This document shows, piece after piece, positions 1 to 47,481 of a DNA stretch of 64,000 nucleotides. The DNA lies in NCBI GenBank assembly GCA_051294905.1, contig CM119371.1, forward strand, positions 35,590,001 through 35,654,000, given 5' to 3'. Made by a program: the position numbers and the translations under genes. A model generated the notes under the pieces. It ran no database searches and had not been told where the DNA came from. It saw nothing but the letters and a program-made list of their open reading frames with translations. Positions within the stretch are counted from its first letter, which is position 1, and each line of letters begins with the position of its first letter. The stretch comes from Botryllus schlosseri (Eukaryota).

Positions 1-514
1 TATTTCTATCTTAGACAAGTGCTCCACTTTTAACCACGTTCAGGAGTCGAGGCTTGTCCCAAAGCATAATCGAACCGAGTTTTAGCCAATTCTACCGTCT
101 AGTTCGAGTCGAATTTCATCTCTACTTTTCAGAGAAATTGCACGAGTATCATCACCTGGCCAACGTCTTTCGCAAAATTACACGTATAGCTCTCGGATTA
201 AAGACGCCGATATTTCTATCTTAGACAAGTGCTCCACTTTTAATCACGTTCAGGAGTCGAGGCTTGTCCGAAAGCATAATCGAACCGAATTTCAGCCAAT
301 TCTACCGTCTAGTTCGAGTCGAATCTCATCTCCTCTTTTCAGAGAAATTGCACGAGTATCATCACCTGGCCAACGTCTTTCGCAAAATTACACGTATAGC
401 TATTTTCGGCTTGAGACGTCGTCGCGTGCGGACCTCTTGCTGCGCTTCCTAACTGAGTAGTCTGAGATAGACAAGCGCTCTATAATAATTAGTGATCTAC
501 AACGCCAGTATCGG

Positions 515-5766: not shown

Positions 5767-5827
5767 TGGTGCAAAAGGCCGTCAGGCGATAAGCGCCAGT
5801 TTTTTGTTTAATAAACAACAACAACAA
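5767..5827 (+). other. LINE 3' end: stem-loop, polyA signal and (CAA)n tail
   Basis: TGGTGC (5767-5772) can pair with GCGCCA (5793-5798) around an inner GCC-GTCA-GGC hairpin; AATAAA at 5810; CAA x4. Confidence 0.7.
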
Positions 5828-14800: not shown

Positions 14801-17800
14801 TTTCGCAAAATTACACGTATAGCTCTCGGATTAAAGACGCCGATATTTCTATCTTAGACAAGTGCTCCACTTTTAATCACGTTCACGAGTCAAGGCTTGT
14901 CCCAAAGCATAATCGAACCGAGTTTTAGCCAATTCTACCGTCTAGTTCGAGTCGAATTTCATCTCTACTTTTCAGAGAAATTGCACGAGTATCATCACCT
15001 GGCCAACGTCTTTCGCAGAATTACACGTATAGCTCTCGGATTAAAGACGCCGATATTTCTATCTTAGACAAGTGCTCCACTTTTAATCACGTTCAGGAGT
15101 TGAGGCTTGTCCCAAAGCATAATCGAACCGAGTTTTAGCCAATTCTACCGTCTAGTTCGAGTCGAATTTCATCTCTACTTTTCAGAGAAATTGCACGAGT
15201 ATCATCACCTGGCAAACGTCTTTCGCAAAATTACACGTATAGCTCTCGGATTAAAGACGCCGATATTTCTATCTTAGACAAGTGCTCCACTTTTAATCAC
15301 GTTCAGGAGTCGAGGCTTGTCCCAAAGCATAATCGAACCGAGTTTTAGCCAATTCTACCGTCTAGTTCGAGTCGAATTTCATCTCTACTTTTCAGAGAAA
15401 TTGCACGAGTATCATCACCTGGCCAACGTCTTTCGCAAAATTACACTTATAGCTCTCGGATTAAAGACGCCGATATTTCTATCTTAGACAAGTGCTCCAC
15501 TTTTAACCACGTTCAGGAGTCGAGGCTTGTCCCAAAGCATGATCGAACCGAATTTCAGCCAATTCTACCGTCTAGTTCGAGTCGAATATCATCTCTACTT
15601 TTCAGAGAAATAGCGCGAGTATCATCACCTGGCTAACGTCTTTCGCAAAATTACACGTATAGCTCTCGGATTAAAGACGCCGATATTTCTATCTTAGACA
15701 AGTGCTCCACTTTTAACCATGTTCAGTAGTCGAGGCATGTCCCAAAGCATAATCGAACCGAATTTCAGCCAATTCTACCGTCTAGTTTGAGTCGAATCTC
15801 ATCTCTACTTTTCAGAGAAATTGCACGAGTATCATCACCTGGCCAACGTCTTTCGCAAAATTACACGTCTTGCTCTCGGATTAAAGACGCCGATATTTTT
15901 ATCTTAGACAAGTGCTCCACTTTTACCCACGTTCAGGAGTCGAGGCTTGTCCCAAAGCATAATCGAACCGAATTTCTGCCAATTCTACCGTCTAGTTCGA
16001 GTCGAATCTCATCTCTACTTTTCAGAGAAATAGCGCGAGTATCATAACCTGGCCAACGTCTTTCGCAAAATTACACGTATAGCTCTCGGATTAAAGACGC
16101 CGATATTTCTATCTTAGACAAGTGCTCCACTTTTAACCACGTTCAGGAGTCGAGGCTTGTCCCAAAGCATAATCGAACCGAATTTCAGCCAATTCTACCG
16201 TCTAGTTCGAGTCGAATCTCATCTCTACTTTTCAGAGAAATTGCACGAGTATCATCACCTGGCCAACGTCTTTCGCAAAATTACACGTATAGCTCTCGGA
16301 TTAAAGACGCCGATATTCCTATCTTAGACAAGTGCTCCACTTTTAATCACGTTCAGGAGTCGAGGCTTGTCCCAAAGCATAATCGAACCGAGTTTTAGCC
16401 AATTCTACCGTCTAGTTCGAGTCGAATTTCATCTCTACTTTTCAGAGAAATTGCACGAGTATCATCACCTGGCCAACGTCTTTCGCAAAATTACACTTAT
16501 AGCTCTCGGATTAAAGACGCCGATATTTCTATCTTAGACAAGTGCTCCACTTTTAACCACGTTCAGGAGTCGAGGCTTGTCCCAAAGCATGATCGAACCG
16601 AATTTCAGCCAATTCTACCGTCTAGTTCGAGTCGAATATCATCTCTACTTTTCAGAGAAATAGCGGGAGTATCATCACCTGGCTAACGTCTTTCGCAAAA
16701 TTACACGTATAGCTCTCGGATTAAAGACGCCGATATTTCTATCTTAGACAAGTGCTCCACTTTTAACCATGTTCAGTAGTCGAGGCTTGTTCCAAAGCAT
16801 AATCGAACCGAATTTCAGCCAATTCTACCGTCTAGTTTGAGTCGAATCTCATCTCTACTTTTCAGAGAAATTGCACGAGTATCATCACCTGGCCAACGTC
16901 TTTCGCAAAATTACACGTATAGCTCTCGGATTAAAGACGCCGATATTTTTATCTTAGACAAGTGCTCCACTTTTACCCACGTTCAGGAGTCGAGGCTTGT
17001 CCCAAAGCATAATCGAACCGAATTTCAGCCAATTCTACCGTCTAGTTCGAGTCGAATCTCATCTCTACTTTTCAGAGAAATAGCGCGAGTATCATAACCT
17101 GGCCAACGTCTTTCGCAAAATTACACGTATAGCTCTCGGATTAAAGACGCCGATATTTCTATCTTAGACAAGTGCTCCACTTTTAACCACGTTCAGGAGT
17201 CGAGGCTTGTCCCAAAGCATAATCGAACCGAATTTCAGCCAATTCTACCGTCTAGTTCGAGTCGAATCTCATCTCTACTTTTCAGAGAAATTGCACGAGT
17301 ATCATCACCTGGCCAACGTCTTTCGCAAAATTACACGTATAGCTCTCGGATTAAAGACGCCGATATTTCTATCTTAGACAAGTGCTCCACTTTTAATCAC
17401 GTTCACGAGTCGAGGCTTGTCCCAAAGCATAATCGAACCGAGTTTTAGCCAATTCTACCGTCTAGTTCGAGTCGAATTTCATCTCTACTTTTCAGAGAAA
17501 TTGCACGAGTATCATCACCTGGCCAACGTCTTTCGCAGAATTACACGTATAGCTCTCGGATTAAAGACGCCGATATTTCTATCTTAGACAAGTGCTCCAC
17601 TTTTAATCACGTTCAGGAGTTGAGGCTTGTCCCAAAGCATAATCGAACCGAGTTTTAGCCAATTCTACCGTCTAGTTCGAGTCGAATTTCATCTCTACTT
17701 TTCAGAGAAATTGCACGAGTATCATCACCTGGCAAACGTCTTTCGCAAAATTACACGTATAGCTCTCGGATTAAAGACGCCGATATTTCTATCTTAGACA

Positions 17801-20800
17801 AGTGCTCCACTTTTAATCACGTTCAGGAGTCGAGGCTTGTCCCAAAGCATAATCGAACCGAGTTTTAGCCAATTCTACCGTCTAGTTCGAGTCGAATTTC
17901 ATCTCTACTTTTCAGAGAAATTGCACGAGTATCATCACCTGGCCAACGTCTTTCGCAAAATTACACTTATAGCTCTCGGATTAAAGACGCCGATATTTCT
18001 ATCTTAGACAAGTGCTCCACTTTTAACCACGTTCAGGAGTCGAGGCTTGTCCCAAAGCATGATCGAACCGAATTTCAGCCAATTCTACCGTCTAGTTCGA
18101 GTCGAATATCATCTCTACTTTTCAGAGAAATAGCGCGAGTATCATCACCTGGCTAACGTCTTTCGCAAAATTACACGTATAGCTCTCGGATTAAAGACGC
18201 CGATATTTCTATCTTAGACAAGTGCTCCACTTTTAACCATGTTCAGTAGTCGAGGCTTGTCCCAAAGCATAATCGAACCGAATTTCAGCCAATTCTACCG
18301 TCTAGTTTGAGTCGAATCTCATCTCTACTTTTCAGAGAAATTGCACGAGTATCATCACCTGGCCAACGTCTTTCGCAAAATTACACGTATAGCTCTCGGA
18401 TTAAAGACGCCGATATTTTTATCTTAGACAAGTGCTCCACTTTTACTCACGTTCAGGAGTCGAGGCTTGTCCCAAAGCATAATCGAACCGAATTTCAGCC
18501 AATTCTATCGTCTAGTTCGAGTCGAATCTCATCTCTACTTTTCAGAGAAATTGCACGAGTATCATCACCTGGCCAACGTCTTTCGCAAAATTACACGTAT
18601 AGCTCTCGGATTTAAGACGCCGATATTTCTATCTTAGACAAGTGCTCCACTTTTAATCACGTTCACGAGTCGAGGCTTGTCCCAAAGCATAATCGAACCG
18701 AGTTTTAGCCAATTCTACCGTCTAGTTCGAGTCGAATTTCATCTCTACTTTTCAGAGAAATTGCACGAGTATCATCACCTGGCCAACGTCTTTCGCAAAA
18801 TTACACGTATAGCTCTCGGATTAAAGACGCCGATATTTCTATCTTAGACAAGTGCTCCACTTTTAATCACGTTCAGGAGTTGAGGCTTGTCCCAAAGCAT
18901 AATCGAACCGAGTTTTAGCCAATTCTACCGTCTAGTTCGAGTCGAATTTCATCTCTACTTTTCAGAGAAATTGCACGAGTATCATCACCTGGCAAACGTC
19001 TTTCGCAAAATTACACGTATAGCTCTCGGATTAAAGACGCCGATATTTCTATCTTAGACAAGTGCTCCACTTTTAATCACGTTCACGAGTCGAGGCTTGT
19101 CCCAAAGCATAATCGAACCGAGTTTTAGCCAATTCTACCGTCTAGTTCGAGTCGAATTTCATCTCTACTTTTCAGAGAAATTGCACGAGTATCATCACCT
19201 GGCCAACGTCTTTCACAAAATTACACGTATAGCTCTCGGATTAAAGACGCCGATATTTCTATCTTAGACAAGTGCTCCACTTTTAATCAAGTTCAGGAGT
19301 CGAGGCTTGTCCCAAAGCATAATCGAACCGAGTTTTAGCCAATTCTACCGTCTAGTTCGAGTCGAATTTCATCTCTACTTTTCAGAGAAATTGCACGAGT
19401 ATCATCACCTGGCCAACGTCTTTCGCAATTTTACACGTATAGCTCTCGGATTAAAGACGCCGATATTTCTATCTTAGACAAGTGCTCCACTTTTAATCAC
19501 GTTCAGGAGTCGAGGCTTGTCCCAAAGCATAATCGAACCGAGTTTTAGCCAATTCTACCGTCTAGTTCGAGTCGAATTTCATCTCTACTTTTCAGAGAAA
19601 TTGCACGAGTATCATCACCTGGCCAACGTCTTTGGCAAAATTACACGCATAGCTCTCGGATTAAAGACGCCGATATTTCTATCTTAGACAAGTGCTCCAC
19701 TTTTAATCACGTTCACGGGTCGAGGCTTGTCCCAAAGCATAATCGAACCGAGTTTTAGCCAATTCTACCGTCTAGTTCGAGTCGAATTTCATCTCTACTT
19801 TTCATAGAAATTGCACGAGTATCATCACCTGGCCAACGTCTTTCGCAAAATTACACGTATAGCTCTCGGATTAAAGACGCCGATATTTCTATCTTAGACA
19901 AGTGCTCCACTTTTAACCACGTTCAGGAGTCGAGGCTTGTCCCAAAGCATAATCGAACCGAGTTTCAGCCAATTCTACCGTCTAGTTCGAGTCGAATTTC
20001 ATCTCTACTTTTCAGAGAAATTGCACGAGTATCATCACCTGGCCAACGTCTTTCGCAAAATTACACGTATAGCTCTCGGATTAAAGACGCCGATATTTCT
20101 ATCTTAGACAAGTGCTCCACTTTTAATCACGTTCACGGGTCGAGGCTTGTCCCAAAGCATAATCGAACCGAGTTTTAGCCAATTCTACCGTCTAGTTCGA
20201 GTCGAATTTCATCTCTACTTTTCAGAGAAATTGCACGAGTATCATCACCTGGCAAACGTCTTTCGCAAAATTACACGTATAGCTCTCGGATTAAAGACGC
20301 CGATATTTCTATCTTAGACAAGTGCTCCACTTTTAATCACGTTCACGAGTCGAGGCTCGTCCCAAAGCATAATCGAACCGGCTTGTCCCAAAGCATAATC
20401 GAACCGAGTTTTAGCCAATTCTACCGTCTAGTTCGAGTCGAATTTCATCTCTACTTTTCAGAGAAATTGCACGAGTATCATCACCTGGCAAACGTCTTTC
20501 ACAAAATTACACGTATAGCTCTCGGATTAAAGACGCCGATATTTCTATCTTAGACAAGTGCTCCACTTTTAATCAAGTTCACGGGTCGAGGCTTGTCCCA
20601 AAGCATAATCGAACCGAGTTTTGGCCAATTCTACCGTCTAGTTCGAGTCGAATTTCATCTCTACTTTTCAGAGAAATTGCACGAGTATCATCACCTGGCC
20701 AACGTCTTTCGCAATTTTACACGTATAGCTCTCGGATTAAAGACGCCGATATTTCTATCTTAGACAAGTGCTCCACTTTTAATCACGTTCAGGAGTCGAG

Positions 20801-23800
20801 GCTTGTCCCAAAGCATAATCGAACCGAGTTTTAGCCAATTCTACCGTCTAGTTCGAGTCGAATTTCATCTCTACTTTTCAGAGAAATTGCACGAGTATCA
20901 TCACCTGGCCAACGTCTTTGGCAAAATTACACGCATAGCTCTCGGATTAAAGACGCCGATATTTCTATCTTAGACAAGTGCTCCACTTTTAATCACGTTC
21001 ACGGGTCGAGGCTTGTCCCAAAGCATAATCGAACCGAGTTTTAGCCAATTCTACCGTTTAGTTCGAGTCGAATTTCATCTCTACTTTTCATAGAAATTGC
21101 ACGAGTATCATCACCTGGCCAACGTCTTTCGCAAAATTACACGTATAGCTCTCGGATTAAAGACGCCGATATTTCTATCTTAGACAAGTGCTCCACTTTT
21201 AACCACGTTCAGGAGTCGAGGCTTGTCCCAAAGCATAATCGAACCGAGTTTCAGCCAATTCTACCGTCTAGTTCGAGTCGAATTTCATCTCTACTTTTCA
21301 GAGAAATTGCACGAGTATCATCACCTGGCCAACGTCTTTCGCAAAATTACACGTATAGCTCTCGGATTAAAGACGCCGATATTTCTATCTTAGACAAGTG
21401 CTCCACTTTTAATCACGTTCAGGAGTCGAGGCTTGTCCAAAAGCATAATCGAACCGAGTTTTAGCCAATTCTACCGTCTAGTTCGAGTCGAATTTCATCT
21501 CTACTTTTCAGTGAAATTGCACGAGTATCATCACCTGGCCAACGTCTTTCGCAAAATTACACGTATAGCTCTCGGATTAAAGACGCCGATATTTCTATCT
21601 TAGACAAGTGCTCCACTTTTAATCACGTTCACGGGTCGAGGCTTGTCCCAAAGCATAGTCGAACCGAGTTTTAGCCAATTCTACCGTCTAGTTCGAGTCG
21701 AATTTCATCTCTACTTTTCAGAGAAATTGCACGAGTATCATCACCTGGCCAACGTCTTTCGCAAAATTACACGTATAGCTCTCGGATTAAAGACGCCGAT
21801 ATTTCTATCTTAGACAAGTGCTCCACTTTTAATCACGTTCAGGAGTTGAGGCTTGTCCCAAAGCATAATCGAACCGAGTTTTAGCCAATTCTACCGTCTA
21901 GTTCGAGTCGAATTTCATCTCTACTTTTCAGAGAAATTGCACGAGTATCATCACCTGGCAAACGTCTTTCGCAAAATTACACGTATAGCTCTCGGATTAA
22001 AGACGCCGATATTTCTATCTTAGACAAGTGCTCCACTTTTAATCACGTTCACGAGTCGAGGCTTGTCCCAAAGCATAATCGAACCGAGTTTTAGCCAATT
22101 CTACCGTCTAGTTCGAGTCGAATTTCATCTCTACTTTTCAGAGAAATTGCACGAGTATCATCACCTGGCCAACGTCTTTCGCAAAATTACACGTATAGCT
22201 CTCGGATTAAAGACGCCGATATTTCTATCTTAGACAAGTGCTCCACTTTTAATCACGTTCACGAGTCGAGGCTCGTCCCAAAGCATAATCGAACCGGCTT
22301 GTCCCAAAGCATAATCGAACCGAGTTTTAGCCAATTCTACCGTCTAGTTCGAGTCGAATTTCATCTCTACTTTTCAGAGAAATTGCACGAGTATCATCAC
22401 CTGGCCAACGTCTTTCGCAAAATTACACGTATAGCTCTCGGATTAAAGACGCCGATATTTCTATCTTAGACAAGTGCTCCACTTTTAATCACGTTCAGGA
22501 GTCGAGGCTTGTCCAAAAGCATAATCGAACCGAGTTTTAGCCAATTCTACCGTCTAGTTCGAGTCGAATTTCATCTCTACTTTTCAGTGAAATTGCACGA
22601 GTATCATCACCTGGCCAACGTCTTTCGCAAAATTACACGTATAGCTCTCGGATTAAAGACGCCGATATTTCTATCTTAGACAAGTGCTCCACTTTTAATC
22701 ACGTTCACGGGTCGAGGCTTGTCCCAAAGCATAATCGAACCGAGTTTTAGCCAATTCTACCGTCTAGTTCGAGTCGAATTTCATCTCTACTTTTCAGAGA
22801 AATTGCACGAGTATCATCACCTGGCCAACGTCTTTCGCAAAATTACACGTATAGCTCTCGGATTAAAGACGCCGATATTTCTATCTTAGACAAGTGCTCC
22901 ACTTTTAATCACGTTCAGGAGTTGAGGCTTGTCCCAAAGCATAATCGAACCGAGTTTTAGCCAATTCTACCGTCTAGTTCGAGTCGAATTTCATCTCTAC
23001 TTTTCAGAGAAATTGCACGAGTATCATCACCTGGCAAACGTCTTTCGCAAAATTACACGTATAGCTCTCGGATTAAAGACGCCGATATTTCTATCTTAGA
23101 CAAGTGCTCCACTTTTAATCACGTTCAGGAGTCGAGGCTTGTCCAAAAGCATAATCGAACCGAGTTTTAGCCAATTCTACCGTCTAGTTCGAGTCGAATT
23201 TCATCTCTACTTTTCAGTGAAATTGCACGAGTATCATCACCTGGCCAACGTCTTTCGCAAAATTACACGTATAGCTCTCGGATTAAAGACGCCGATATTT
23301 CTATCTTAGACAAGTGCTCCACTTTTAATCACGTTCACGGGTCGAGGCTTGTCCCAAAGCATAATCGAACCGAGTTTTAGCCAATTCTACCGTCTAGTTC
23401 GAGTCGAATTTCATCTCTACTTTTCAGAGAAATTGCACGAGTATCATCACCTGGCCAACGTCTTTCGCAAAATTACACGTATAGCTCTCGGATTAAAGAC
23501 GCCGATATTTCTATCTTAGACAAGTGCTCCACTTTTAATCACGTTCAGGAGTTGAGGCTTGTCCCAAAGCATAATCGAACCGAGTTTTAGCCAATTCTAC
23601 CGTCTAGTTCGAGTCGAATTTCATCTCTACTTTTCAGAGAAATTGCACGAGTATCATCACCTGGCAAACGTCTTTCGCAAAATTACACGTATAGCTCTCG
23701 GATTAAAGACGCCGATATTTCTATCTTAGACAAGTGCTCCACTTTTAATCACGTTCACGAGTCGAGGCTTGTCCCAAAGCATAATCGAACCGAGTTTTAG

Positions 23801-26800
23801 CCAATTCTACCGTCTAGTTCGAGTCGAATTTCATCTCTACTTTTCAGAGAAATTGCACGAGTATCATCACCTGGCCAACGTCTTTCGCAAAATTACACGT
23901 ATAGCTCTCGGATTAAAGACGCCGATATTTCTATCTTAGACAAGTGCTCCACTTTTAATCACGTTCACGAGTCGAGGCTCGTCCCAAAGCATAATCGAAC
24001 CGGCTTGTCCCAAAGCATAATCGAACCGAGTTTTAGCCAATTCTACCGTCTAGTTCGAGTCGAATTTCATCTCTACTTTTCAGAGAAATTGCACGAGTAT
24101 CATCACCTGGCAAACGTCTTTCACAAAATTACACGTATAGCTCTCGGATTAAAGACGCCGATATTTCTATCTTAGACAAGTGCTCCACTTTTAATCAAGT
24201 TCACGGGTCGAGGCTTGTCCCAAAGCATAATCGAACCGAGTTTTGGCCAATTCTACCGTCTAGTTCGAGTCGAATTTCATCTCTACTTTTCAGAGAAATT
24301 GCACGAGTATCATCACCTGGCCAACGTCTTTCGCAATTTTACACGTATAGCTCTCGGATTAAAGACGCCGATATTTCTATCTTAGACAAGTGCTCCACTT
24401 TTAATCACGTTCAGGAGTCGAGGCTTGTCCCAAAGCATAATCGAACCGAGTTTTAGCCAATTCTACCGTCTAGTTCGAGTCGAATTTCATCTCTACTTTT
24501 CAGAGAAATTGCACGAGTATCATCACCTGGCCAACGTCTTTGGCAAAATTACACGCATAGCTCTCGGATTAAAGACGCCGATATTTCTATCTTAGACAAG
24601 TGCTCCACTTTTAATCACGTTCACGGGTCGAGGCTTGTCCCAAAGCATAATCGAACCGAGTTTTAGCCAATTCTACCGTTTAGTTCGAGTCGAATTTCAT
24701 CTCTACTTTTCATAGAAATTGCACGAGTATCATCACCTGGCCAACGTCTTTCGCAAAATTACACGTATAGCTCTCGGATTAAAGACGCCGATATTTCTAT
24801 CTTAGACAAGTGCTCCACTTTTAACCACGTTCAGGAGTCGAGGCTTGTCCCAAAGCATAATCGAACCGAGTTTCAGCCAATTCTACCGTCTAGTTCGAGT
24901 CGAATTTCATCTCTACTTTTCAGAGAAATTGCACGAGTATCATCACCTGGCCAACGTCTTTCGCAAAATTACACGTATAGCTCTCGGATTAAAGACGCCG
25001 ATATTTCTATCTTAGACAAGTGCTCCACTTTTAATCACGTTCAGGAGTCGAGGCTTGTCCAAAAGCATAATCGAACCGAGTTTTAGCCAATTCTACCGTC
25101 TAGTTCGAGTCGAATTTCATCTCTACTTTTCAGTGAAATTGCACGAGTATCATCACCTGGCCAACGTCTTTCGCAAAATTACACGTATAGCTCTCGGATT
25201 AAAGACGCCGATATTTCTATCTTAGACAAGTGCTCCACTTTTAATCACGTTCACGGGTCGAGGCTTGTCCCAAAGCATAATCGAACCGAGTTTTAGCCAA
25301 TTCTACCGTCTAGTTCGAGTCGAATTTCATCTCTACTTTTCAGAGAAATTGCACGAGTATCATCACCTGGCCAACGTCTTTCGCAAAATTACACGTATAG
25401 CTCTCGGATTAAAGACGCCGATATTTCTATCTTAGACAAGTGCTCCACTTTTAATCACGTTCAGGAGTTGAGGCTTGTCCCAAAGCATAATCGAACCGAG
25501 TTTTAGCCAATTCTACCGTCTAGTTCGAGTCGAATTTCATCTCTACTTTTCAGAGAAATTGCACGAGTATCATCACCTGGCAAACGTCTTTCGCAAAATT
25601 ACACGTATAGCTCTCGGATTAAAGACGCCGATATTTCTATCTTAGACAAGTGCTCCACTTTTAATCACGTTCACGAGTCGAGGCTTGTCCCAAAGCATAA
25701 TCGAACCGAGTTTTAGCCAATTCTACCGTCTAGTTCGAGTCGAATTTCATCTCTACTTTTCAGAGAAATTGCACGAGTATCATCACCTGGCCAACGTCAT
25801 TCACAAAATTACACGTATAGCTCTCGGATTAAAGACGCCGATATTTCTATCTTAGACAAGTGCTCCACTTTTAATCAAGTTCAGGAGTCGAGGCTTGTCC
25901 CAAAGCATAATCGAACCGAGTTTTAGCCTATTCTACCGTCTAGTTCGAGTCGAATTTCATCTCTACTTTTCAGAGAAATTGCACGAGTATCATCACCTGG
26001 CCAACGTCTTTCGCAATTTTACACGTATAGCTCTCGGATTAAAGACGCCGATATTTCTATCTTAGACAAGTGCTCCACTTTTAATCACGTTCAGGAGTCG
26101 AGGCTTGTCCCAAAGCATAATCGAACCGAGTTTTAGCCAATTCTACCGTCTAGTTCGCGTCGAATTTCATCTCTACTTTTCATAGAAATTGCACGAGTAT
26201 CATCACCTGGCCAACGTCTTTCGCAAAATTACACGTATAGCTCTCGGATTAAAGACGCCGATATTTCTATCTTAGACAAGTGCTCCACTTTTAACCACGT
26301 TCAGGAGTCGAGGCTTGTCCCAAAGCATAATCGAACCGAGTTTCAGCCAATTCTACCGTCTAGTTCGAGTCGAATTTCATCTCTACTTTTCAGAGAAATT
26401 GCACGAGTATCATCACCTGGCCAACGTCTTTCGCAAAATTACACGTATAGCTCTCGGATTAAAGACGCCGATATTTCTATCTTAGACAAGTGCTCCACTT
26501 TTAATCACGTTCACGGGTCGAGGCTTGTCCCAAAGCATAATCGAACCGAGTTTTAGCCAATTCTACCGTCTAGTTCGAGTCGAATTTCATCTCTACTTTT
26601 CAGAGAAATTGCACGAGTATCATCACCTGGCCAACGTCTTTCGCAAAATTACACGTATAGCTCTCGGATTAAAGACGCCGATATTTCTATCTTAGACAAG
26701 TGCTCCACTTTTAACCACGTTCAGGAGTCGAGGCTTGTCCCAAAGCATAATCGAATCGAATTTCAGCCAATTCTACCGTCTAGTTCGAGTCGAATCTCAT

Positions 26801-29800
26801 CTCTACTTTTTAGAGAAATTGCACGAGTATCATCACCTGGCCAACGTCTTTCGCAAAATTACATGTATAGCTCTCGGATTAAAGACGCCGATATTTCTAT
26901 CTTAGACAAGTGCTCCACTTTTAATCACGTTCACGAGTCGAGGCTTGTCCCAAAGCATAATCGAACCGAGTTTTAGCCAATTCTACCGTCTAGTTCGAGT
27001 CGAATTTCATCTCTACTTTTCAGAGAAATTGCACGAGTATCATCACCTGGCCAACGTCTTCCGCAAAATTACACGTATAGCTCTCGGATTAAAGACGCCG
27101 ATATTTCTATCTTAGACGAGTGCTCCACTTTTAATCACGTTCAGGAGTCGAGGCTTGTCCCAAAGCATAATCGAACCGAGTTTTAGCCAATTCTACCGTC
27201 TAGATCGAGTCGAATATCATCTCTACTTTTCAGAGAAATAGCGCGAGTATCATCACCTGGCTAACGTCTTTCGCAAAATTACACGTATAGCTCTCGGATT
27301 AAAGACGCCGATATTTCTATCTTAGACAAGTGCTCCACTTTTAACCACGTTCAGGAGTCGAGGCTTGTCCCAAAGCATAATCGAACCGAATTTCAGCCAA
27401 TTCTACCGTCTAGTTCGAGTCGAATCTCATCTCTACTTTTCAGAGAAATTGCACGAGTATCATCCCCTGGCCAACGTCTTTCGCAAAATTACACGTATAG
27501 CTCTCGGATTAAAGACGCCGATATTTTTATCTTAGACAAGTGCTCCACTTTTACCCACGTTCAGGAGTCGAGGCTTGTCTCAAAGCATAATCGAACCGAA
27601 TTTCAGCCAATTCTACCGTCTAGTTCGAGTCGAATCTCATCTCTACTTTTCAGAGAAATAGTGCGAGTATCATAACCTGGCCAACGTCTTTCGCGAAATT
27701 ACACGTATAGCTCTCGGATTAAAGATGCCGATATTTCTATCTTAGACAAGTGCTCCACTTTTAACCACGTTCAGGAGTCGAGGCTTGTCCCAAAGCATAA
27801 TCGAACCGAATTTCAGCCAATTCTACCGTCTAGTTCGAGCCAAATTTCATCTCTACTTTTCAGAGAAATTGCACGAGTATCATCACCTGGCCAACGTCTT
27901 TCGCAAAATAACACGTATAGCTCTCGGATTAAAGACGCCGATATTTCTATCTTAGACAAGTGCTCCACTTTTAATCACGTTCAGGAGTCGAGGCTTGTCC
28001 CAAAGCATAATCGAACCGAGTTTTAGCCAATTCTACCGTCTAGTTCGAGTCGAATTTCATCTCTACTTTTCAGAGAAATTGCACGAGTATCATCACCTGG
28101 CAAACGTCTTTCGCAAAATTACACGTATAGCTCTCGGATTAAAGACGCCGATATTTCTATCTTAGACAAGTGCTCCACTTTTAATCACGTTCACGAGTCG
28201 AGGCTTGTCCCTAAGCATAATCGAACCGAGTTTTAGCCAATTCTACCCTCTAGTTCGAGTCGAATTTCATCTCTACTTTTCTGAGAAATTGCACGAGTAT
28301 CATCACCTGGCCAACGTCTTTCGCAAAATTACACGTATAGCTCTCGGATTAAAGACGCCGATATTTCTATCTTAGACAAGTGCTCCACTTTTAATCACGT
28401 TCAGGAGTCGAGGCTTGTCCCAAAGCATAATCGAACCAAGTTTTAGCCAATTCTACCGTCTAGTTCGAGTCGAATTTCATCTCTACTTTTCAGAGAAATT
28501 GCACGAGTATCATCACCTGGCCAACGTCTTCCGCAAAATTACACGTATAGCTCTCGGATTAAAGACGCCGATATTTCTATCTTAGACATGTACTCCACTT
28601 TTAATAACGTTCACGAGTCGAGGCTTGTCCCAAAGCATAATCGAACCGAGTTTTAGCCAATTCTACCGTCTAGTTCGAGTCGAATTTCATCTCTACTTTT
28701 CAGAGAAATTGCACGAGTATCATCACCTGGCCGACGTCTTTCGCAAAATTACACGTATAGCTCTCGGATTAAAGACGCCGATATTTCTATCTTAGACAAG
28801 TGCTCCACTTTTAATCACGTTCAGGAGTCGAGGCTTATCCCAAAGCATAATCGAACCGAGTTTTAGCCAATTCTACCGTCTAGTTAGAGTCGAATTTCAT
28901 CTCTACTTTTCAGAGAAATTGCACGAGTATCATCACCTGGCCAACGTCTTTCGCGAAATTACACGTATAGCTCTCGGATTAAAGACGCCGATATTTCTAT
29001 CTTAGACAAGTGCTCCACTTTTAATCACGTTCAGGAGTCGAGGCTTGTCTCAAAGCATATTCGAACCGAGTTTTAGCCAATTCTACCGTCTAGTTCGAGT
29101 CGAATTTCATCTCTACTTTTCAGAGAAATTGCACGAGTATCATCACCTGGCCAACGTCTTTCGCAAAATTACACGTATAGCTCTCGGATTAAAGACGCCG
29201 ATATTTCTATGTTAGACAAGTGCTCCACTTTTAACCACGTTCAGGAGTCGAGGCTTGTCCCAAAGCATAATCGAACCGAATTTCAGCCAATTCTACCGTC
29301 TAGTTCGAGTCGAATATCATCTCTACTTTTCAGAAATATAGCGCGAGTATCATCACCTGGCTAACGTCTTTCGCAAAATTATACGTATAGCTCTCGGATT
29401 AAAGACGCCGATATTTCTATCTTAGACAAGTGCTCCACTTTTAACCACGTTCAGGAGTCGAGGCTTGTCCCAAAGCATAATGGAACCGAATTTCAGCCAA
29501 TTCTACCGTCTAGTTCGAGACGAATCTCATCTCTACTTTTCAGAGAATTTGCACGAGTATCATCACCTGGCCAACGTCTTCCGCAAAATTACACGTATAG
29601 CTCTCGGATTAAAGACGCCGATATTTCTATCTTAGACAAGTGCTCCACTTTTAATCACGTTCACGAGTCGAGGCTTGTCTCAAAGCATATTCGAACCGAG
29701 TTTTAGCCAATTCTACCGTCTAGTTCGAGTCGAATTTCATCTCTACTTTTCAGAGAAATTGCACGAGTATCATCACCTGGCCAACGTCTTTCGCAAAATT

Positions 29801-32007
29801 ACACGTATAGCTCTCGGATTAAAGACGCCGATATTTCTATCTTAGACAAGTGCTCCACTTTTAATCACGTTCAGGAGTCGAGGCTTGTCCCAAAGCATAA
29901 TCGAACCGAGTTTTAGCCAATTCTACCGTCTAGTTCGAGTCGAATTTCATCTCGACTTTTCAGAGAAATTGCACGAGTATCATCACCTGGCCAACGTCTT
30001 TCGCAAAATTACACGTATAGCTCTCGGATTAGAGACGCCGATATTTCTATCTTAGACAAGTGCTCCACTTTTAATCACGTTCAGGAGTCGAGGCTTGTCC
30101 CAAAGCATAATCGAACCGAGTTTTAGCCAATTCTACAGTCTAGTTCGAGTCGAATTTCATCTCTACTTTTCAGAGAAATTGCACGAGTATCATCACCTGG
30201 CCGACGTCTTTCGCAAAATTACACGTATAGCTCTCGGATTAAAGACGCCGATATTTCTATCTTAGACAAGTGCTCCACTTTTAACCACGTTCAGGAGTCG
30301 AGGCTTGTCCCAAAGCATAATCGAACCGAATTTCAGCCAATTCTACCGTCTAGTTCGAGTCGAATATCATCTCTACTTTTCAGAGAAATAGCGCGAGTAT
30401 CATCACCTGGCTAACGTCTTTCGCAAAATTACACGTATAGCTCTCGGATTAAAGACGCCGATATTTCTATCTTAGACAAGTGCTCCACTTTTAATCACGT
30501 TCAGGAGTCGAGGCTTGTCCCAAAGCATAATCGAACCGAGTTTTAGCCAATTCTACCGTCTAGTTCGAGTCGAATTTCATCTCTACTTTTCAGAGAAATT
30601 GCACGAGTATCATCACCTGGCCAACGTCTTTCGCAAAATTACACGTATAGCTCTCGGATTAAAGACGCCGATATTTTTATCTTAGACAAGTGCTCAACTT
30701 TTAATCACGTTCAGGAGTCGAGGCTTGTCCCAAAGCATAATCGAACCGAGTTTTAGCCAATTCTACCGTCTAGTTCGAGTCGAATTTCATCTCTACTTTT
30801 CAGAGAAATTGCACGAGTATCATCACCTGGCCAACGTCTTTCGCAAAATTACACGTATAGCTCTCGGATTAAAGACGCCGATATTTCTATCTTAGACAAG
30901 TGCTCCACTTTTAATCACGTTCACGAGTCGAGGCTTGTCCCAAAGCATAATCGAACCGAGTTTTGGCCAATTCTACCGTCTAGTTCGAGTCGAATTTCAT
31001 CTCTACTTTTCAGAGAAATAGCACGAGTATCATCACCTGGCCAACGTCTTTAGCAAAATTACACGTATAGCTCTCGGATTGAAGACGCCGATATTTCTAT
31101 CTTAGACAAGTGCTCCACTTTTAACCACGTTCAGGAGTCGAGGCTTGTCCCAAAGCATAATCGAACCGAATTTCAGCCAATTCTACCGTCTAGTTCGAGT
31201 CGAATCTCATCTCTACTTTTCAGAGAAATTGCGCGAGTATCATCACCTGGCCAACGTCTTTCGCAAAATTACACGTATAGCTGTCGGATTAAAGACGCCG
31301 ATATTTCTTTTTTAGACAAGTGCTCCACTTTTAACCACGTTCACGAGTCGAGGCTTGTCCCAAAGCATAATCGAACCGAGTTTTAGCCAATTCTACCGTC
31401 TTGTTCGAGTCGAATTTCATCTCTACTTTTCAGAGAAATTGCACGAGTATCATCACCTGGCCAACATCTTTCGCAAAATTACACGTATAGCTCTTGGATT
31501 AGAGACGCCGATATTTCTATCTTAGACGAGTGCTCCACTTTTAATCACGTTCAGGAGTCGAGGCTTGTCCCAAAGCATAATCGAACCGAGTTTTAGCCAA
31601 TTCTACCGTCTAGTTCGAGTCGAATTTCATCTCTACTTTTCAGAGAAATTGCACGAGTATCATCACCTGGCCGACGTCTTTCGCAAAATTACACGTATAG
31701 CTCTCGGATTAAAGACGCCGATATTTCTATCTTAGACAAGTGCTCCACTTTTAACCACGTTCAGGAGTCGAGGCTTGTCCCAAAGCATAATCGAACCGAA
31801 TTTCAGCCAATTCTACCGTCTAGTTCGAGTCGAATCTCATCTCTACTTTTCAGAGAAATAGCGCGAGTATCATCACCTCGCCAATGTTTGTCGAAAAAAG
31901 CAAAGCATAATGCACACGACGATTGAAAATTGTATTTTTATTGCACAGAAAATGAAAGGATTGCTTTCCGAATATGAATAGCAGTCAACAATACCGAAAC
32001 ATTATAT

Positions 32008-33159
32008 TCAGGAAGTACTGGATTTTTCACATTCAGAACAAAACCATAGAAAAGATGGTTCACTCCAAACACCATTCGGAATCGGTTGAGGATGGCATTC
32101 ACCATGATACCATGTGTCACATGCATCGCATTTTACCATTTCAGGTTGGGAATGGGCATAAGGCAACTTGCATATACAAAATACTGGCAGGTTTATAGCG
32201 GAGAAGGGGATTGGTGCTGGATCCACGACAAAGAAATCCAGTAAATCGACATGATCTCTTTCAATCATTGTGAGGCACTTCTGCCGAAGTTGCTGCTCAT
32301 ACACCACCGTTTCTGGATTGAACCCAAAACACAGGCTTATGGCATTGGCTATAGCGAAGACACCGCAATCACTACTATTACTTTGCTGTTGGACCCTTGG
32401 AAATAGTATGCTGAGAGTGCTCGAACGCGGTCTACACAGCATTCCGATCGAACATATAGTTTCATCGTTATATGCCGAAGAATTGTAGGCGGAATCATAC
32501 ACGCATATCTGGCCATCTTCACAAAACATATTCGAAACGGTGACCCAATGATTGTTATTTATATTAACTATTTGGATAAATTTTGATTCCTGTGCTGGCG
32601 CGTAGACCAGTCCCGCACGGTCCCGACTATAATACCCGCAAGACGTCAATCCATCTACTTCAGGAAATTGTGTATTCATCATTGACATGAAATGATCCAT
32701 GGTGTCGCTATTTAGCCACTCAGTTGGAGAAAGCAGAATATTACGGCATTGATCAATTCGGCATAATCTAGGCGCACGGGTCCGGATCATTTCAAAACGG
32801 CTTGCAAGGGGTGGAGCAGGCTCGTCACCAATCACCTCAATTTCGGCCGTCCTTTCGAAGCCGCGAAGTTTCGTTTTCGGCGACTGTAAATATCGTCCAA
32901 ACATGTTTTTCGGTTTTTCAGCTCTACCTCTCTTTTTCCAAATTTCAATTTCTGGCTCGGCACATGCGGTAACTCGTTTTTTTCTTCGTTCCGCCTTCCT
33001 TTTTTTGTCGCGGAATGCAGAAATGTTATCATAATACTGGCGAATTAAGGCCGTATTCAGCTCGTCATACACTTTTGCAATTTCAGCCAAGTTAGAAAAT
33101 TTTCGTCCTGGCATTCTCGTGGTTTTCAATTCCTGATTTGACTTTTCACATACAATCAC
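32008..33159 (-). CDS. Ulp1/peptidase C48-like (SUMO/ubiquitin-like) cysteine protease with C-terminal PHD finger; probably the 3' part of a transposon-encoded protein
   Basis: WLNSDTMD, QIVNINNNHWVTVSN (His), VYDS (Asp), QQQSNSSDCGVFAIANA (Gln/Cys); C-terminal CIC…CDAC…YHGEC…WFCSEC is a C4HC3 PHD pattern; AATAAA on the minus strand at 31937-31942; ORF opens at GTG straight after a stop, so the true start is uncertain. Confidence 0.85.
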   Translation of the reverse strand: MIVCEKSNQELKTTRMPGRKFSNLAEIAKVYDELNTALIRQYYDNISAFRDKKRKAERRKKRVTACAEPEIEIWKKRGRAEKPKNMFGRYLQSPKTKLRGFERTAEIEVIGDEPAPPLASRFEMIRTRAPRLCRIDQCRNILLSPTEWLNSDTMDHFMSMMNTQFPEVDGLTSCGYYSRDRAGLVYAPAQESKFIQIVNINNNHWVTVSNMFCEDGQICVYDSAYNSSAYNDETICSIGMLCRPRSSTLSILFPRVQQQSNSSDCGVFAIANAISLCFGFNPETVVYEQQLRQKCLTMIERDHVDLLDFFVVDPAPIPFSAINLPVFCICKLPYAHSQPEMVKCDACDTWYHGECHPQPIPNGVWSEPSFLWFCSECEKSSTS

Positions 33160-34501
33160 TCAGCCCACCACTATCCAAGGTTTCTGGTCCGTTTCGCCGC
33201 CGTATTTCGGAAAAAGCCAGACGCGGACGCCAAATAAACACAGAAAAACCCATACCCTATATTTCACTCATATTTTGTTAAAGTGATATATATACATTTC
33301 GGTCTAGCACTGTCTACGTGCAGATTATGAGAGCATCATAACCGAGGAAGTGAAAGTGCTGATTTCGAGAATGTCCCGATGTATTCAGTTGAAACACCTT
33401 GCTTTGCAACAATGCATACCAAACGTAGTCAAAAACATGATATATTTTGTTCGTGAGCATTTTCAACGTAGCCTAAAGCTAACCACGTACTAGATGTCCA
33501 CATTCAAGTCGAAATACAAGCAATTACTACTAAATAAATACAGTCCATCCTCAAGATTACCGGATCACGACTGACCTATCGATCTCGCTTCCCATGACAT
33601 GCCGCCCTATTTCTTGTCGCTTTCTTTTTCTATACTGTATTCTTTACTTTCATTCAGTGTGCATGCCTCCTCTTTACTACGCCTAGGCCAAGGTGGGTGT
33701 CCGATTCCATTGACAAATCCAAGTCGCTTCGACATCTTCCTGTCTATTCAGTGTATCGCATTTTTTGTGGTGTATTGAAGTGATAAAATTGCTAATAAAC
33801 CAATGATGATGATGATGATGTCGATAATAAATCTGGCGGCCCGTAGCGACTATCACGTTCGGAAAGTGGAGCGGTGGTTGGTAAGGCCAGTCATTCAAGT
33901 CATAAATCGTTTCATTTGCAACACAACGTTGCCATTGACTTTCCCTAAAGCTCTGATAAAAACCCAGGAGTGCCATGTCTGTTCTGGACCCCAATTGTGG
34001 AACAGCATCTCGACAGTCGTCGAGCATGTCCGCATTCAAGTTAAATCACAGGCACTGTTCCCTGTAAGCTGAGTACGTGCAGACTGCACAGTGCTGAGAC
34101 GGTATCTGCGCACAAAAATCGGAACTGATGATTTTAGAACTATTGCCCAGGGTTTGTGCAGTGAGTTGGTGAGTGTGCGCAGGCTGATTTCAGGCAATTT
34201 CTTCTAAACGAATACTAGTTGGCCTTCAGGATTACCGGAGCCATGTCACCTTCATTTTGTCGCTTACGTCTCATACTCGCTGCAGTACCTAAATGTAATT
34301 TAAACTGACATCACAGCCTACGTCCATCAATGCTAAATAATGCTCTAATCTTCCTTCATACATTTTATTTGAAAAGAATTTGAACGAAATTTTGATGAAC
34401 AATATTCTTGGTGTACATCCATCGTACCATGTCTTTGACAACTTTCGCTCCCCATGATTTGTACCCTGCAAACAAGACGAAGAGTTTAGGCGCCTTCATC
34501 C

Positions 34502-34711
34502 TAGGGTTGTATTGGCTCGAGTCAATCTGACTCAGGAGTCACCAAGCCAAGACCGACATTTCACTGTAACCACACTATCGGGATTTCGTCCATTGCTACT
34601 ATGTACTTGAAAATGCGCTCAGAAACTGATGAAAGTGAGGATAATTTGTATATTGTAAATCAAAACCATTCAATATCAACAAACAGGGTTATCGTCTTAT
34701 CAAAAGTGGCT
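34502..34711. mobile_element. Truncated copy of the GACTCGAGTC-rich MITE family, cut off by the inverted satellite copies
   Basis: Starts TAGGGTTG; GCCAAGACCGACATTTCA…GTACTTGAAAATGCG…AAATCAAAA matches 49390-49560 and the reverse complement of the 38422-38859 copy. Confidence 0.75.
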
Positions 34712-35308
34712 TATCGGCGTCTTTAATCCGAGAGCTATACGTGTAATTTTGCGAAAGACGTTGGCCAGGTGATGATACTCGTGCAATTTCTCTGAAAAGT
34801 AGAGATGAAATTCGACTCGAACTAGACGGTAGAATTGGCTAAAACTCGGTTCGATTATGCTTTGGGACAAGCCTCGACTCCTGAACGTGATTAAAAGTGG
34901 AGCACTTGTCTAAGGTAGAAATATCGGCGTCTTTAATCCGAGAGCTATACGTGTAATTTTGCGAAAGACGTTGGCCAGGTGATGATAATCGTGCAATTTC
35001 TCTGAAAAGTATAGATGAAATTCGACTCGAACTAGACGGTAGAATTGGTTAAAACTCGGTTCGATTATGCTTTGGGACAAGCCTCGACTCCTGAACGTGA
35101 TTAAAAGTGGAGCACTTGTCTAAGATAGAAATATCGGCGTCTTTAATCCGAGAGCTATACGTGTAATTTTGCGAAAGACGTTGGCCAGGTGATGATACTC
35201 GTGCAATTTCTCTGAAAAGTAGAGATGAAATTCGACTCGAACTAGACGGTAGAATTGGCAGAAATTCGCTTCGATCATGCTTTGGGACAAGCCTCGACTC
35301 CTGAACGT
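34712..35308 (-). repeat. ~2.8 copies of the 210-bp satellite monomer in inverted orientation
   Basis: TATCGGCGTCTTTAATCCGAGAGCTATACGTGT… is the reverse complement of the array monomer, with 210-bp period. Confidence 0.98.
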
Positions 35309-35920
35309 CTTCTTGCGTACTGTACTTGGTTGAAATAATACTTGCAATAAATCATAGTTGTCTGTTTTGGACATGTTTTACGCGACAGATCTGCATAAAA
35401 TTTGGTATGGACAGAGTTGTATATACGTTTTATCTTGTGTCAACTGTCAGTGTCCAAATCCGGATACAATATCCGGATACGCCATTGTTCGATCATTTTG
35501 GTGATACAACCGTTCATGTTGTTTCATGTCACATTTGGTGGGTACCCTTCGATTTGTGTGATAGAATTTTGTGTGATAACTTCACTCTGGTGTCCTATTG
35601 GGTGTTCCTTTCTTGACAGTTGATTCGGCCATATTTTAAGAGACCGGTTTTGTTTTATAATTGGTCTACGCCTACGGTGCAATTCTTTCATCAGAGTTCG
35701 TGCTTGACTGAGTACATGAAATGCTATCAACACTTCGTTGAATTGAATCAGAATAGCCTATATTGTGTTATACCGTCCAACCGTGCATCCTGGGGTCATG
35801 ACCTCAGAAATCTTGTAACCATGTAGGCTACTGTGTAACAGGGAGAGATTTGTAACCTTGAAACTGGAATCACCGGGATAGTGGCATTTGAGTGACCAAA
35901 TCAAGGTTTAAGCCCTAGTT

Positions 35921-36777
35921 CAGTGGTTGTCAACCGGGGGTCCGCGGAGCATTTTCAGTAGGTCCGCAAGGCCTCTAAATTTACAAAATAGCTTGTAACC
36001 GAATTTGTATTTTTTGAATTAGGAAAATCACGAGTCAGTTTCACTTCATTACTAGTAAAACTCCAGAACTCACATCAACAAAATGGCCGTCTGAGATGAA
36101 ACATACTACTGCATATAGACTCATTTTAATTGGCAAATTGCCAGTTGCCAATACTGATACAAACCTTTTGCTCTTTAGAGATGTTGTGTTAGGTATTGTG
36201 GAATATATAGAAGTTGGATTAGTAAGATTAATTACGGTAACTTCGAAATGTTTACAAAAATCCATTTCTCCTATGATATAGCCTACATAACCATTTTCCA
36301 TAATAATTTCAAGATAAACTGCTATATCTAATGATCGGGCTTGACGTTATATGCTTATTACAAAAACTTGTTTGTGAATTGTGGTGCCATATATTTTTTG
36401 CGATCATACCCAAATGTGTCGTCGAAGGGTGGCGTTATTATTACATTCACCACCACCTATCTTTGTGGAAATGGATTTTCGGCACTCGTTCATAATAAAT
36501 CAACGGCGCAGATTTTCAAGACACGACCCGGTATTTCAAGAAATGCATTTGCAGAATTCGCTTTGAAATAATAAAAGTCAACTCAATTTCTACATAAATA
36601 GTAGCCTACAGTGTTACTTTCAAGAAAAGTCATTTTGTTACTGTTTATCACTAGCGTACAGTTATTATTTGCACACGACAGATGACGATTGCATGATAAT
36701 TGAGGTAAATTTGAACTAACGGGGGTCCGTGACAGTCCAAAAGGGGTCCACGAATCCAGAAAGGTTGAGAACCACTG
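35921..36777. mobile_element. Non-autonomous hAT-type element (MITE)
   Basis: TIRs CAGTGGTTGTCAACC / GGTTGAGAACCACTG; 8-bp TSD CCCTAGTT / CTCTAGTT; GGGGTCC subterminal motifs. Confidence 0.8.
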
Positions 36778-47418: not shown

Positions 47419-47481
47419 GTAAGCAAAATTCGTAGCTCACCAAAACCTATTGTCCATCCATTCAATGAATACTCTACACAG

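What the first reader, a model, noticed from the sequence alone, without database searches (positions are those of the whole stretch)
32008..33270. Ulp1-PHD ORF may be the frameshifted tail of a DDE transposase
Seen: the ORF opens after a TGA with VIVCEKSNQELK, and an adjacent minus-strand frame just upstream reads FIWRPRLAFSEIRRRNGPETLDSGGLSD. Inference: joining them across a small indel gives W…LSDxVCEKSNQELK, resembling the W…(T/S)NNxxExxNxxLK segment around the catalytic Glu of MULE-type transposases. It is followed by a basic NLS-like tract (RDKKRKAERRKKR), the protease and the PHD finger. The His/Asp/Cys triad and all PHD ligands appear intact, so a chromatin-reading de-SUMOylase-like protein could still be made from the MPGRKF start.
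Basis: partly seen in the sequence, partly recalled or inferred. Interest (0 to 1): 0.7.

Follow-up and report, generated by a model that had tools for sequence, protein, structure and literature searches.

The report
Deleted foldback transposon, protease-PHD tail
This reading frame is the surviving back end of a jumping-gene enzyme (a Mutator-like transposase carrying a predicted SUMO-type protease and a likely histone-reading finger), cut off from its front by a likely large deletion and not by a frameshift, so it is a broken copy of an already described kind of transposon.

Summary
Longer relatives carry a MULE-like core (D..D..CxxH..E; model of one matches the IS256-family transposase ISCth4, Z 12.3) followed by the same Ulp1-type protease. 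The frameshift is wrong. Homology stops at the Glu codon. In 4 of 4 sequencing runs, other copies leave the window's sequence at 33144-33147 and continue with letters that read TENCRTSGIM, the family's motif. No 5' transposase lies in the window. The ORF sits between inverted arrays of a 210-bp repeat (3 units on one side, at least 128 on the other), the layout of Rehavkus-type foldback elements. Protease triad and PHD ligands are intact, but two RNA runs show almost no reads, so a stand-alone protein is unsupported. Ulp1+PHD on Mutator transposases and satellite growth from Rehavkus arms are published. The scan already noted similar deleted foldback elements elsewhere in this genome. New member of a known kind.

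The parts
32008..33147 (-). Transposase-derived coding remnant, from the catalytic Glu codon to the stop (379 aa)
   Evidence: tblastn of P0008, P0049 and P0009 stops at 33147-33153; contigs of other copies depart at 33144/33147
33145..33147 (-). Third catalytic residue (Glu) of the DDE triad; first transposase codon kept
   Evidence: aligns with the invariant Glu of TQG..E in 6 of 6 relatives; its catalytic role is inferred from position in the RNase H fold
32866..33147 (-). End of the DDE domain and following helical and basic linker
   Evidence: profile match to transposase alignment A2, 97.6%, E 2.9e-12; HMM iE 3e-11
33112..33114 (-). Met16 (MPGRKF), first ATG of the remnant; an internal Met in the intact protein
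   Evidence: the same Met is internal in paralog P0009
32974..33012 (-). Basic tract RDKKRKAERRKKR (NLS-like; function untested)
   Evidence: sequence; similar in P0009
32287..32571 (-). Ulp1/SENP-type (C48) protease core: His 32548-32550, Asp 32494-32496, Gln 32383-32385, Cys 32365-32367
   Evidence: Pfam PF02902 E 3.3e-4; model pLDDT mostly 93-98 over the domain, one block at 69; top Foldseek hits yeast Ulp1, E 6e-7
32029..32178 (-). PHD finger (C4HC3) with F327, Y334, M341, W350 at the positions of the PHF2-type aromatic cage
   Evidence: Pfam PF00628 E 5.5e-7; best PDB sequence hits PHF2, PHF8, BPTF; the cage role of these positions is recalled
31937..31942 (-). AATAAA, candidate polyadenylation signal, inside the decayed innermost satellite unit
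33146..33147 (.). Breakpoint with 2 shared bases, between the transposase remnant and unrelated repeat DNA
   Evidence: loose ends behind 33144/33147 and before 33146 in 4 of 4 runs
33146..33276 (.).
   Evidence: contig depth in the thousands to tens of thousands against hundreds on the ORF in X1, X2, X6, with own flanks in other copies; no profile match
33277..34710 (.). Non-coding patchwork of dispersed repeats between the breakpoint and the inverted array; likely the 5' interior of the element
   Evidence: no transposase match by tblastn or HMM; several high-depth segments; that it belongs to the element is inferred
34711..35307 (-). Inverted short array of the 210-bp repeat (2.8 units); likely the 5' foldback arm
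   Evidence: 597 nt, 97-98% complementary to the long array
5827..31952 (+). Long array of the 210-bp repeat, decaying after 31898 into the ORF's 3' flank; likely the expanded 3' arm
   Evidence: 128 plus-strand unit matches, 26,395 bases, mean 98.1% to one unit, including those at 1-401; decayed inner unit
1..401 (+). Continuation of the same array beyond a LINE insertion; runs off the window

Best explanation
The ORF is the 3' remnant of a Mutator-like transposase gene, cut at its catalytic Glu codon and joined to unrelated repeat DNA, likely by an internal deletion in a Rehavkus-type foldback element whose inverted arms are likely the 210-bp repeat arrays on either side. Shown: the remnant's identity, the breakpoint, the different upstream sequence in other copies, the inverted arrays, and the intact protease and PHD residues. 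Inferred mechanism: intact copies elsewhere in the genome make a transposase of roughly 1,000 residues (DDE core with CxxH and a helical insertion, basic linker, Ulp1-type protease, PHD). It would bind the repeat-filled arms and cut and paste. The protease would remove SUMO-type tags that otherwise inhibit the enzyme or silence the element, and the PHD would tether the complex to H3K4-methylated chromatin. This copy lost both catalytic Asp residues and the DNA-binding front, probably by microhomology-assisted repair (2 shared bases, ATG-TGA versus ATG-GA look-alike), so it cannot move itself. One arm's repeat then grew to a satellite of at least 26 kb that took a LINE insertion. The remnant is probably not expressed and is still open because the break is recent.
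For: Relatives: P0008 (672 aa) matches query 4-301 at 43%, P0049 (988 aa) matches 3-378, P0009 matches 5-97 at 75%. Their N-termini carry Y(I/L)DATG, CDG, CxSH and TQG..EK motifs. Pfam MULE E 0.0014 on P0049. The model of P0008 matches ISCth4 best, Z 12.3, rmsd 4.4, 223 aligned, next Z 8.4; ISCth4 is IS256 family, akin to MULEs, with DDE, CxxH and a helical insertion (PMC7780238, passages). Atlas top clusters include 'MULE transposase domain' at 0.93 and 0.90. Breakpoint: all matches stop at 33147-33153. In 4 of 4 runs (at most 3 samples), contigs including 99-100% identical ones depart at 33144/33147. The X2/X6 loose end reads TENCRTSGIM, score 23.0, above all 23,493 random window 10-mers (max 16.3), and shares 3 of 30 bases with the window. 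Two further loose ends read by hand as DNCRTSGVME and EICRTSGIME. Arms: inverted arrays 97-98% complementary; the long array's inner unit decays into the 3' flank. RNA: 7 of 12 ORF bins empty in X24 and 6 of 12 in X22, summed depth at most about 3, against about 100 per direction at 34344-34437 in X24. Two of the six private in-frame changes (L184, Q41) replace residues that other copies and relatives share.
Against: Neither outer end nor a target-site duplication was seen; the long array runs off the window and no genome is held, so the arrays as arms rest on layout. Pfam MULE is below its curated cutoff (19.4 of 27.6 bits), and Foldseek gave no hit at E 0.001 or better for the P0008 model (best 1.8e-3; mean pLDDT 55). 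No listed contig bridges the window's own junction (0 of 32 listed pieces, 224 not shown), so an assembly error is not excluded. One X1 loose end behind 33147 reads PISYRISGIM by hand and fits the motif only in part. The ORF has no stop or frameshift over 379 codons. No Repbase Rehavkus protein could be compared. Protease and PHD functions are untested.
Confidence: 0.75

Rival explanations
1. The remnant is a transposase tail that was moved or captured next to a pre-existing satellite. The 210-bp arrays are not this family's arms, and the inverted 2.8 units are a separate rearrangement.
For: Ends and target-site duplication not seen. The interior 33148-34710 is a patchwork of other repeats. 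In X1 an identical copy of 33146-33258 continues into other DNA. The inner non-repeat flanks of the two arrays are not alike (score 24, shuffle mean 23.9).
Against: The arrays face each other around the gene. The innermost unit has decayed gradually and overlaps the gene's AATAAA, unlike a fresh insertion. An X5 contig covers 31900-32107 with one difference. The same layout is described for Rehavkus (bioRxiv 10.1101/2024.12.02.626372, passages).
Confidence: 0.12
2. The junction at 33146/33147 is an assembly chimera between two repeats, and the genome holds no such deleted copy.
For: No listed contig bridges it (0 of 32 listed, 0 of 16 rows). Both sides are multi-copy.
Against: The runs hold only up to 0.71 of the window's words and differ from it at fixed sites, so they are likely other individuals. 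Contig lists are cut and drop rare variants. Private deletions are usual in such elements (established knowledge).
Confidence: 0.06
3. The deletion made a working stand-alone gene: a 368-residue NLS-protease-PHD protein from Met16 that removes SUMO at marked chromatin, as an anti-silencing helper or a domesticated host gene.
For: Open frame, intact triad and PHD ligands, confident fold (mean pLDDT 82.5), purine at -3 of the ATG, AATAAA downstream.
Against: Almost no RNA reads in two runs, of which 6% and 3% were read. The three X22 reads at 32009 carry the letter of the other copies or alleles. Near-identical copies keep the transposase front, so intactness is explained by recent origin. An ATG-TGA sits right at the junction. 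No promoter evidence.
Confidence: 0.05
4. One reading: one transposase frame broken by a small indel, with FIWRPRL...GLSD as the true upstream peptide.
For: With one gap residue the join loosely resembles the generic MULE Glu motif and reaches the 95th percentile of random peptides (best of three tries).
Against: No profile match. The peptide alone is at null level (28-57% of random peptides score as well). Other copies show another upstream sequence that fits the family motif. No transposase match further upstream in any frame.
Confidence: 0.02

Closest known systems
Rehavkus DNA transposons (Repbase group in or beside the MULE superfamily; PMC6446971 passages, Table 1 row and six supplement rows; bioRxiv 10.1101/2024.12.02.626372 and PMC10218199 passages)
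   Same: MULE-like DDE core in relatives, PHD finger on the transposase, inverted ends filled with subterminal tandem repeats, one arm's repeat able to grow to tens of kb (80.5 kb, 522 units reported in Tribolium castaneum).
   Different: This copy has lost the transposase front. The passages read do not mention a Ulp1 domain for Rehavkus (0 hits for 'Ulp1' or 'protease' in PMC6446971 main text). Listed hosts are insects and an annelid; the host here was not established. TSD and termini unseen, and no sequence comparison was possible.
Animal Mutator (MuDR) and Ginger1 transposases with C-terminal Ulp1 and PHD domains (Bao et al. 2010, PMC2836005, passages)
   Same: Same C-terminal Ulp1 + PHD module in the same order; that paper aligns it in Ginger1 and Mutator transposases and proposes a role in transposition.
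   Different: Ginger1 has a Gypsy-like integrase core; this family has a CxxH/helical-insertion core. The hydra and lancelet MuDR sequences were not compared.
ISCth4 / IS256-family transposase (PDB 6xg8; PMC7780238, passages)
   Same: Best structural match for the core of relative P0008 (Z 12.3): RNase H DDE fold with CxxH and a helical insertion.
   Different: Bacterial, 12% identity, short ends, no protease or PHD, a larger insertion domain here.
Tetris foldback transposon of Drosophila virilis (PMC4079207, passages)
   Same: A foldback element whose arm repeats supplied a satellite DNA; assigned to Mutator.
   Different: No transposase-coding copy of Tetris was found; here a transposase remnant remains.
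Ulp1/SENP proteases (Pfam Peptidase_C48) and PHF2/PHF8/BPTF-type PHD fingers
   Same: His-Asp-Cys triad with oxyanion Gln, same fold; C4HC3 finger closest to PHF2.
   Different: 14-19% identity to solved SENPs; substrate and histone mark untested; fused to a transposase.

Membership tests
MULE superfamily (family of this element) | DDE triad in an RNase H fold with an alpha-helical insertion | tested here: met
   In relatives: DATG, CDG and TQG..E motifs; P0008 model matches ISCth4, Hermes and P element. The window copy itself keeps only the Glu.
MULE superfamily (family of this element) | C/DxxH motif after the second Asp | tested here: met
   CxSH in all 8 rows of alignment A3 that cover the region; deleted in the window copy
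MULE superfamily (family of this element) | Pfam MULE (PF10551) at the curated cutoff | tested here: inconclusive
   P0049 19.4 bits and P0158 18.8 bits against cutoff 27.6; none for P0008 or P0161
MULE superfamily (family of this element) | Long terminal inverted repeats | tested here: inconclusive
   597-nt inverted arrays at 97-98%, but neither terminus was located
MULE superfamily (family of this element) | 8-11 bp target-site duplication | not testable with these tools
   the far end lies outside the window; no genome held
Autonomous MULE copy | Complete transposase in this copy | tested here: not met
   no 5' transposase match in six frames of the window
Rehavkus | PHD finger on the transposase | tested here: met
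   feature from PMC6446971
Rehavkus | Subterminal tandem repeats in inverted ends | tested here: inconclusive
   inverted 210-bp arrays flank the gene; linkage in other copies not shown
Rehavkus | Clusters with Repbase Rehavkus transposases in a tree | not testable with these tools
   no Repbase; the FASTA supplements of PMC6446971 cannot be read
Ginger1 | Gypsy-like integrase core (YPYY, H2C2, GPY/F) | tested here: not met
   relatives sharing the Glu segment have no integrase Pfam hit and show a CxxH/insertion core; integrase hits occur only in proteins sharing the protease alone (P0095)
Peptidase C48 (Ulp1/SENP) | His-Asp-Cys triad, oxyanion Gln and SENP fold | tested here: met
Peptidase C48 (Ulp1/SENP) | Cleaves SUMO conjugates | not testable with these tools
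   needs an assay; NEDD8- and ubiquitin-specific clan members also appear among the fold hits
PHD finger | C4HC3 zinc ligands | tested here: met
   C328, C330, C344, C347, H352, C355, C374, C377

The most novel reading that the evidence does not exclude
The deletion freed a transposase-less SUMO protease-PHD gene that is expressed in the germline from Met16 and acts in trans as an anti-silencing factor. It would strip SUMO from heterochromatin proteins at the 210-bp satellite that grew out of its own element's arm, so a dead transposon would both seed a satellite and encode its chromatin regulator.
Probability: 0.05. Interest if true: 0.6.

Novelty: new member of a known kind. Interest (0 to 1): 0.2.

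Why it matters
As found it is ordinary: a broken copy of a known type of animal transposon. Two modest uses remain. It is a likely snapshot of a satellite of at least 26 kb growing from one arm of a foldback element, with the transposase remnant still attached, as reported in Tribolium. And the intact Ulp1-type protease and PHD give a compact construct to test what these recurring transposase add-ons do. Bao et al. 2010 only proposed a role, and I found no test of it in the listings of my searches, which cover open-access text only.

Tried and rejected
Whole-genome search: no genome held. Word-indexed search for longer homologs: none of 1,721 candidates passed; the full phmmer scan found them, so one search was a false negative. 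Frameshift join: rejected. Other upstream frames (a 119-aa frame at 33683-34045 and shorter ones) as decayed transposase: no Pfam, tblastn or HMM support; of 2,814 six-frame peptides only the ORF scored, next best E 0.21. Three loose-end sequences searched in the window: 0 matches each. Stand-alone host SENP: rejected, because the homologs that match the N-terminal part are transposases. Of the 150 best phmmer hits, four (P0008, P0009, P0049, P0080) match the Glu segment. The rest share the protease, with or without the PHD, and 112 of 150 are under 400 aa. My filter missed P0049 and P0080, so its count of 2 is too low. Ginger: rejected (membership table). Zisupton (recalled as carrying a SUMO protease): the paper search gave 0 and it was not tested further. 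FB-NOF relationship: recalled, no named NOF hit among the 4 proteins; not tested. Foldseek on the P0008 model: no hit at E 0.001 or better. Rfam on 31900-36500 and tRNA scan of the window: nothing. No run holding the stretch is on record as RNA; not used as evidence. dN/dS: only 17 listed differences of one 85% paralog (7 silent, 10 replacement, mostly in the basic linker), too few and too selected to use. Outer end of the inverted arm: not found. Earlier-finding look-ups by sequence or relatives returned nothing. No complex was predicted.

Full report
Observation. The minus strand holds a stop-to-stop frame of 383 codons at 32008-33159 that opens VIVCEKSNQELK after a TGA. Pfam finds Peptidase_C48 at aa 197-291 and PHD at aa 328-377, both at or above their curated cutoffs. 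His204, Asp222, Gln259, Cys265 and the eight PHD ligands are present and are at least 90% conserved in an alignment of 68 sequences, the ORF plus 67 chosen from the hits. A model of the remnant has mean pLDDT 82.5, and its best Foldseek matches are yeast Ulp1 and human SENPs (E 6e-7 and up). The finger's closest solved relatives by sequence are PHF2, PHF8 and BPTF. F327, Y334, M341 and W350 sit where those fingers build their H3K4me3 cage (recalled).

What the N-terminus is. A word-indexed search for longer homologs found nothing. The exhaustive phmmer scan gave 3,846 hits at E 0.001 or better. Most of the best 150 share only the protease and PHD, and some of these sit on other element types (integrase hits on P0095, SWIM on P0040 and P0147). 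P0008, P0009, P0049 and P0080 also match the ORF's first 100 residues. Their longer forms, with P0158, P0161, P0168 and P0169, carry Y(I/L)DATG, CDG (IDG in P0169), CxSH and then N.(R/K)TQG..E before the segment shared with the window. Pfam MULE hits P0049 and P0158 below cutoff. The Atlas returns MULE clusters. The model of P0008 (mean pLDDT 55, core mostly 70-93) matches ISCth4 best in both structure searches: Foldseek E 1.8e-3, not significant, and VIA-align Z 12.3, rmsd 4.4 over 223 residues, next Z 8.4. ISCth4 is an IS256-family enzyme described as similar to MULE transposases, with DDE, CxxH and a helical insertion (PMC7780238, passages). The ORF's first 122 residues from the Glu match the transposase alignment at 97.6%.

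The join is wrong. Every tblastn match of the relatives ends at 33147-33153, and nothing transposase-like lies upstream or elsewhere in the window. A profile built from six relatives scored only the ORF among 2,814 six-frame peptides. Sequencing runs settle it. In 4 of 4 runs laid on 32880-33470 (at most 3 samples), contigs on the ORF, some 99-100% identical, leave the window's sequence at 33144 or 33147. The loose end shared by X2 and X6 reads TENCRTSGIM on the minus strand, scores above all 23,493 random peptides, and shares 3 of 30 bases with the window. Read by hand, two more give DNCRTSGVME and EICRTSGIME, with silent differences between them; a fourth gives PISYRISGIM and fits only in part. 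This also explains why paralog P0009 starts MEKSNQELK. From the other side, contigs of 33146-33201 and 33146-33258 run on into different DNA below 33146, and these stretches have far higher contig depth than the ORF in X1, X2 and X6 (depth is no copy number, only a hint of repeat abundance). The junction is therefore a breakpoint with two shared bases. None of the 32 listed pieces bridges it (224 were not shown), so it is either private to this genome or, less likely, an assembly error.

Surroundings. Downstream of the gene lies a 210-bp tandem array: 128 plus-strand unit matches over 26,395 bases, mean 98.1% to one unit. A LINE interrupts it at 402-5826 and it runs off the window. Upstream, at 34711-35307, 2.8 units lie in the opposite orientation. 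They differ from the long array's units by about 7.6 bases, against 6.55 within it. The long array's innermost unit decays gradually over 31899-31952 and contains the gene's AATAAA, which fits an old link between gene and repeat. Between the breakpoint and the inverted array lies a patchwork of dispersed repeats, one of them extremely abundant (33494-33820). I could not find the outer ends or a target-site duplication.

Expression. In one bulk and one single-cell RNA run (6% and 3% read), 7 and 6 of 12 ORF bins were empty and summed depth never exceeded about 3, while 34344-34437 had about 100 per direction in the bulk run. Counting 32217, which is fixed in X1 only, the window differs from the other samples at six coding sites (three silent, three replacement) plus the stop codon. 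L184 and Q41 replace residues that P0008 (both) and P0009 (the second) share with the other copies. The numbers are small, but they fit a recent break followed by drift. A stand-alone protein from Met16 is possible on sequence and unsupported by data; tissues were not known to me.

Mechanism. Shown: identity of the remnant, breakpoint, inverted arrays, intact protease and finger residues. Inferred: intact relatives cut and paste through repeat-filled arms; the protease removes SUMO-type tags that restrain the transposase or silence the element; the PHD ties it to active chromatin; this copy is non-autonomous; one arm grew into a satellite.

Comparison with what is known. Bao et al. 2010 align Ulp1 and PHD domains of Ginger1 and Mutator transposases and propose a role in transposition (PMC2836005, passages). 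Dupeyron et al. 2019 define Rehavkus by a PHD finger, a minisatellite before the 3' TIR and 9-bp duplications, in insects and an annelid (PMC6446971, passages and six supplement rows; the FASTA supplements that would allow a sequence test cannot be read). Tribolium papers describe satellite repeats in Rehavkus inverted ends, one expanded to 80.5 kb (bioRxiv 10.1101/2024.12.02.626372 and PMC10218199, passages). Tetris is a parallel case (PMC4079207, passages). Rice ULP-MULE fusions are also reported (PMC12903978, passages). PMC13359780 and bioRxiv 10.1101/2021.09.26.461848 (passages) group Rehavkus with MULE. A search for Ulp1 + foldback + transposase gave 0 papers, so the exact triple may be in Repbase only. 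It works like Rehavkus; membership is likely but not proven. Earlier notes of this scan describe several deleted foldback MULEs with Ulp1 or PHD in this genome. I reached my reading before seeing them and did not check them.

Verdict. Observation partly confirmed, interpretation partly supported, new member of a known kind, interest 0.2.

Noticed in passing
window 402-5826 (+): Apparently intact LINE (473-codon ORF1; 1,247-codon endonuclease-RT-RNase H ORF2) inserted in the 210-bp array with a 12-bp target duplication and an (AAC)n tail.
   Followed up: partly
window 34344-34466: Bulk RNA reads pile up here (about 100 per direction), and 225 loose ends leave at 34466, at a minus-strand AG acceptor-like site. 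The partner sequence is not in the window. Likely an exon of a gene transcribed elsewhere, possibly a captured host fragment inside the element.
   Followed up: partly
window 33494-33820: Extremely abundant short repeat, SINE-like by size and read depth, ending at a (ATG)n run on the plus strand; no Rfam or tRNA match.
   Followed up: partly
window 37159-38220 (+): Uninterrupted 353-codon ADP-ribosylglycohydrolase ORF (Pfam E 1e-51), an ARH3-like host gene (name recalled) about 2 kb from the inverted arm.
   Followed up: no
window 47469-48350 (+), 57033-57542 (-), 57993-58433 (-): Three unexplained ORFs of 146-293 codons with no significant Pfam match; they look helical and may be a small gene family.
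   Followed up: no
window 34516-34712, 38580-38773, 49390-49556: A dispersed repeat present three times in the window at 69-81% identity.
   Followed up: no
proteins P0073, P0079, P0033, P0082, P0040, P0147, P0095, P0059: The same Ulp1-PHD module is fused to several different transposase or integrase N-termini among the top hits, which suggests that the module moves between element families.
   Followed up: no
window 35450-35590: Short direct repeats (ATCCGGATAC twice; TTTGTGTGATA twice) outside the inverted array, possible terminal motifs of the arm.
   Followed up: no
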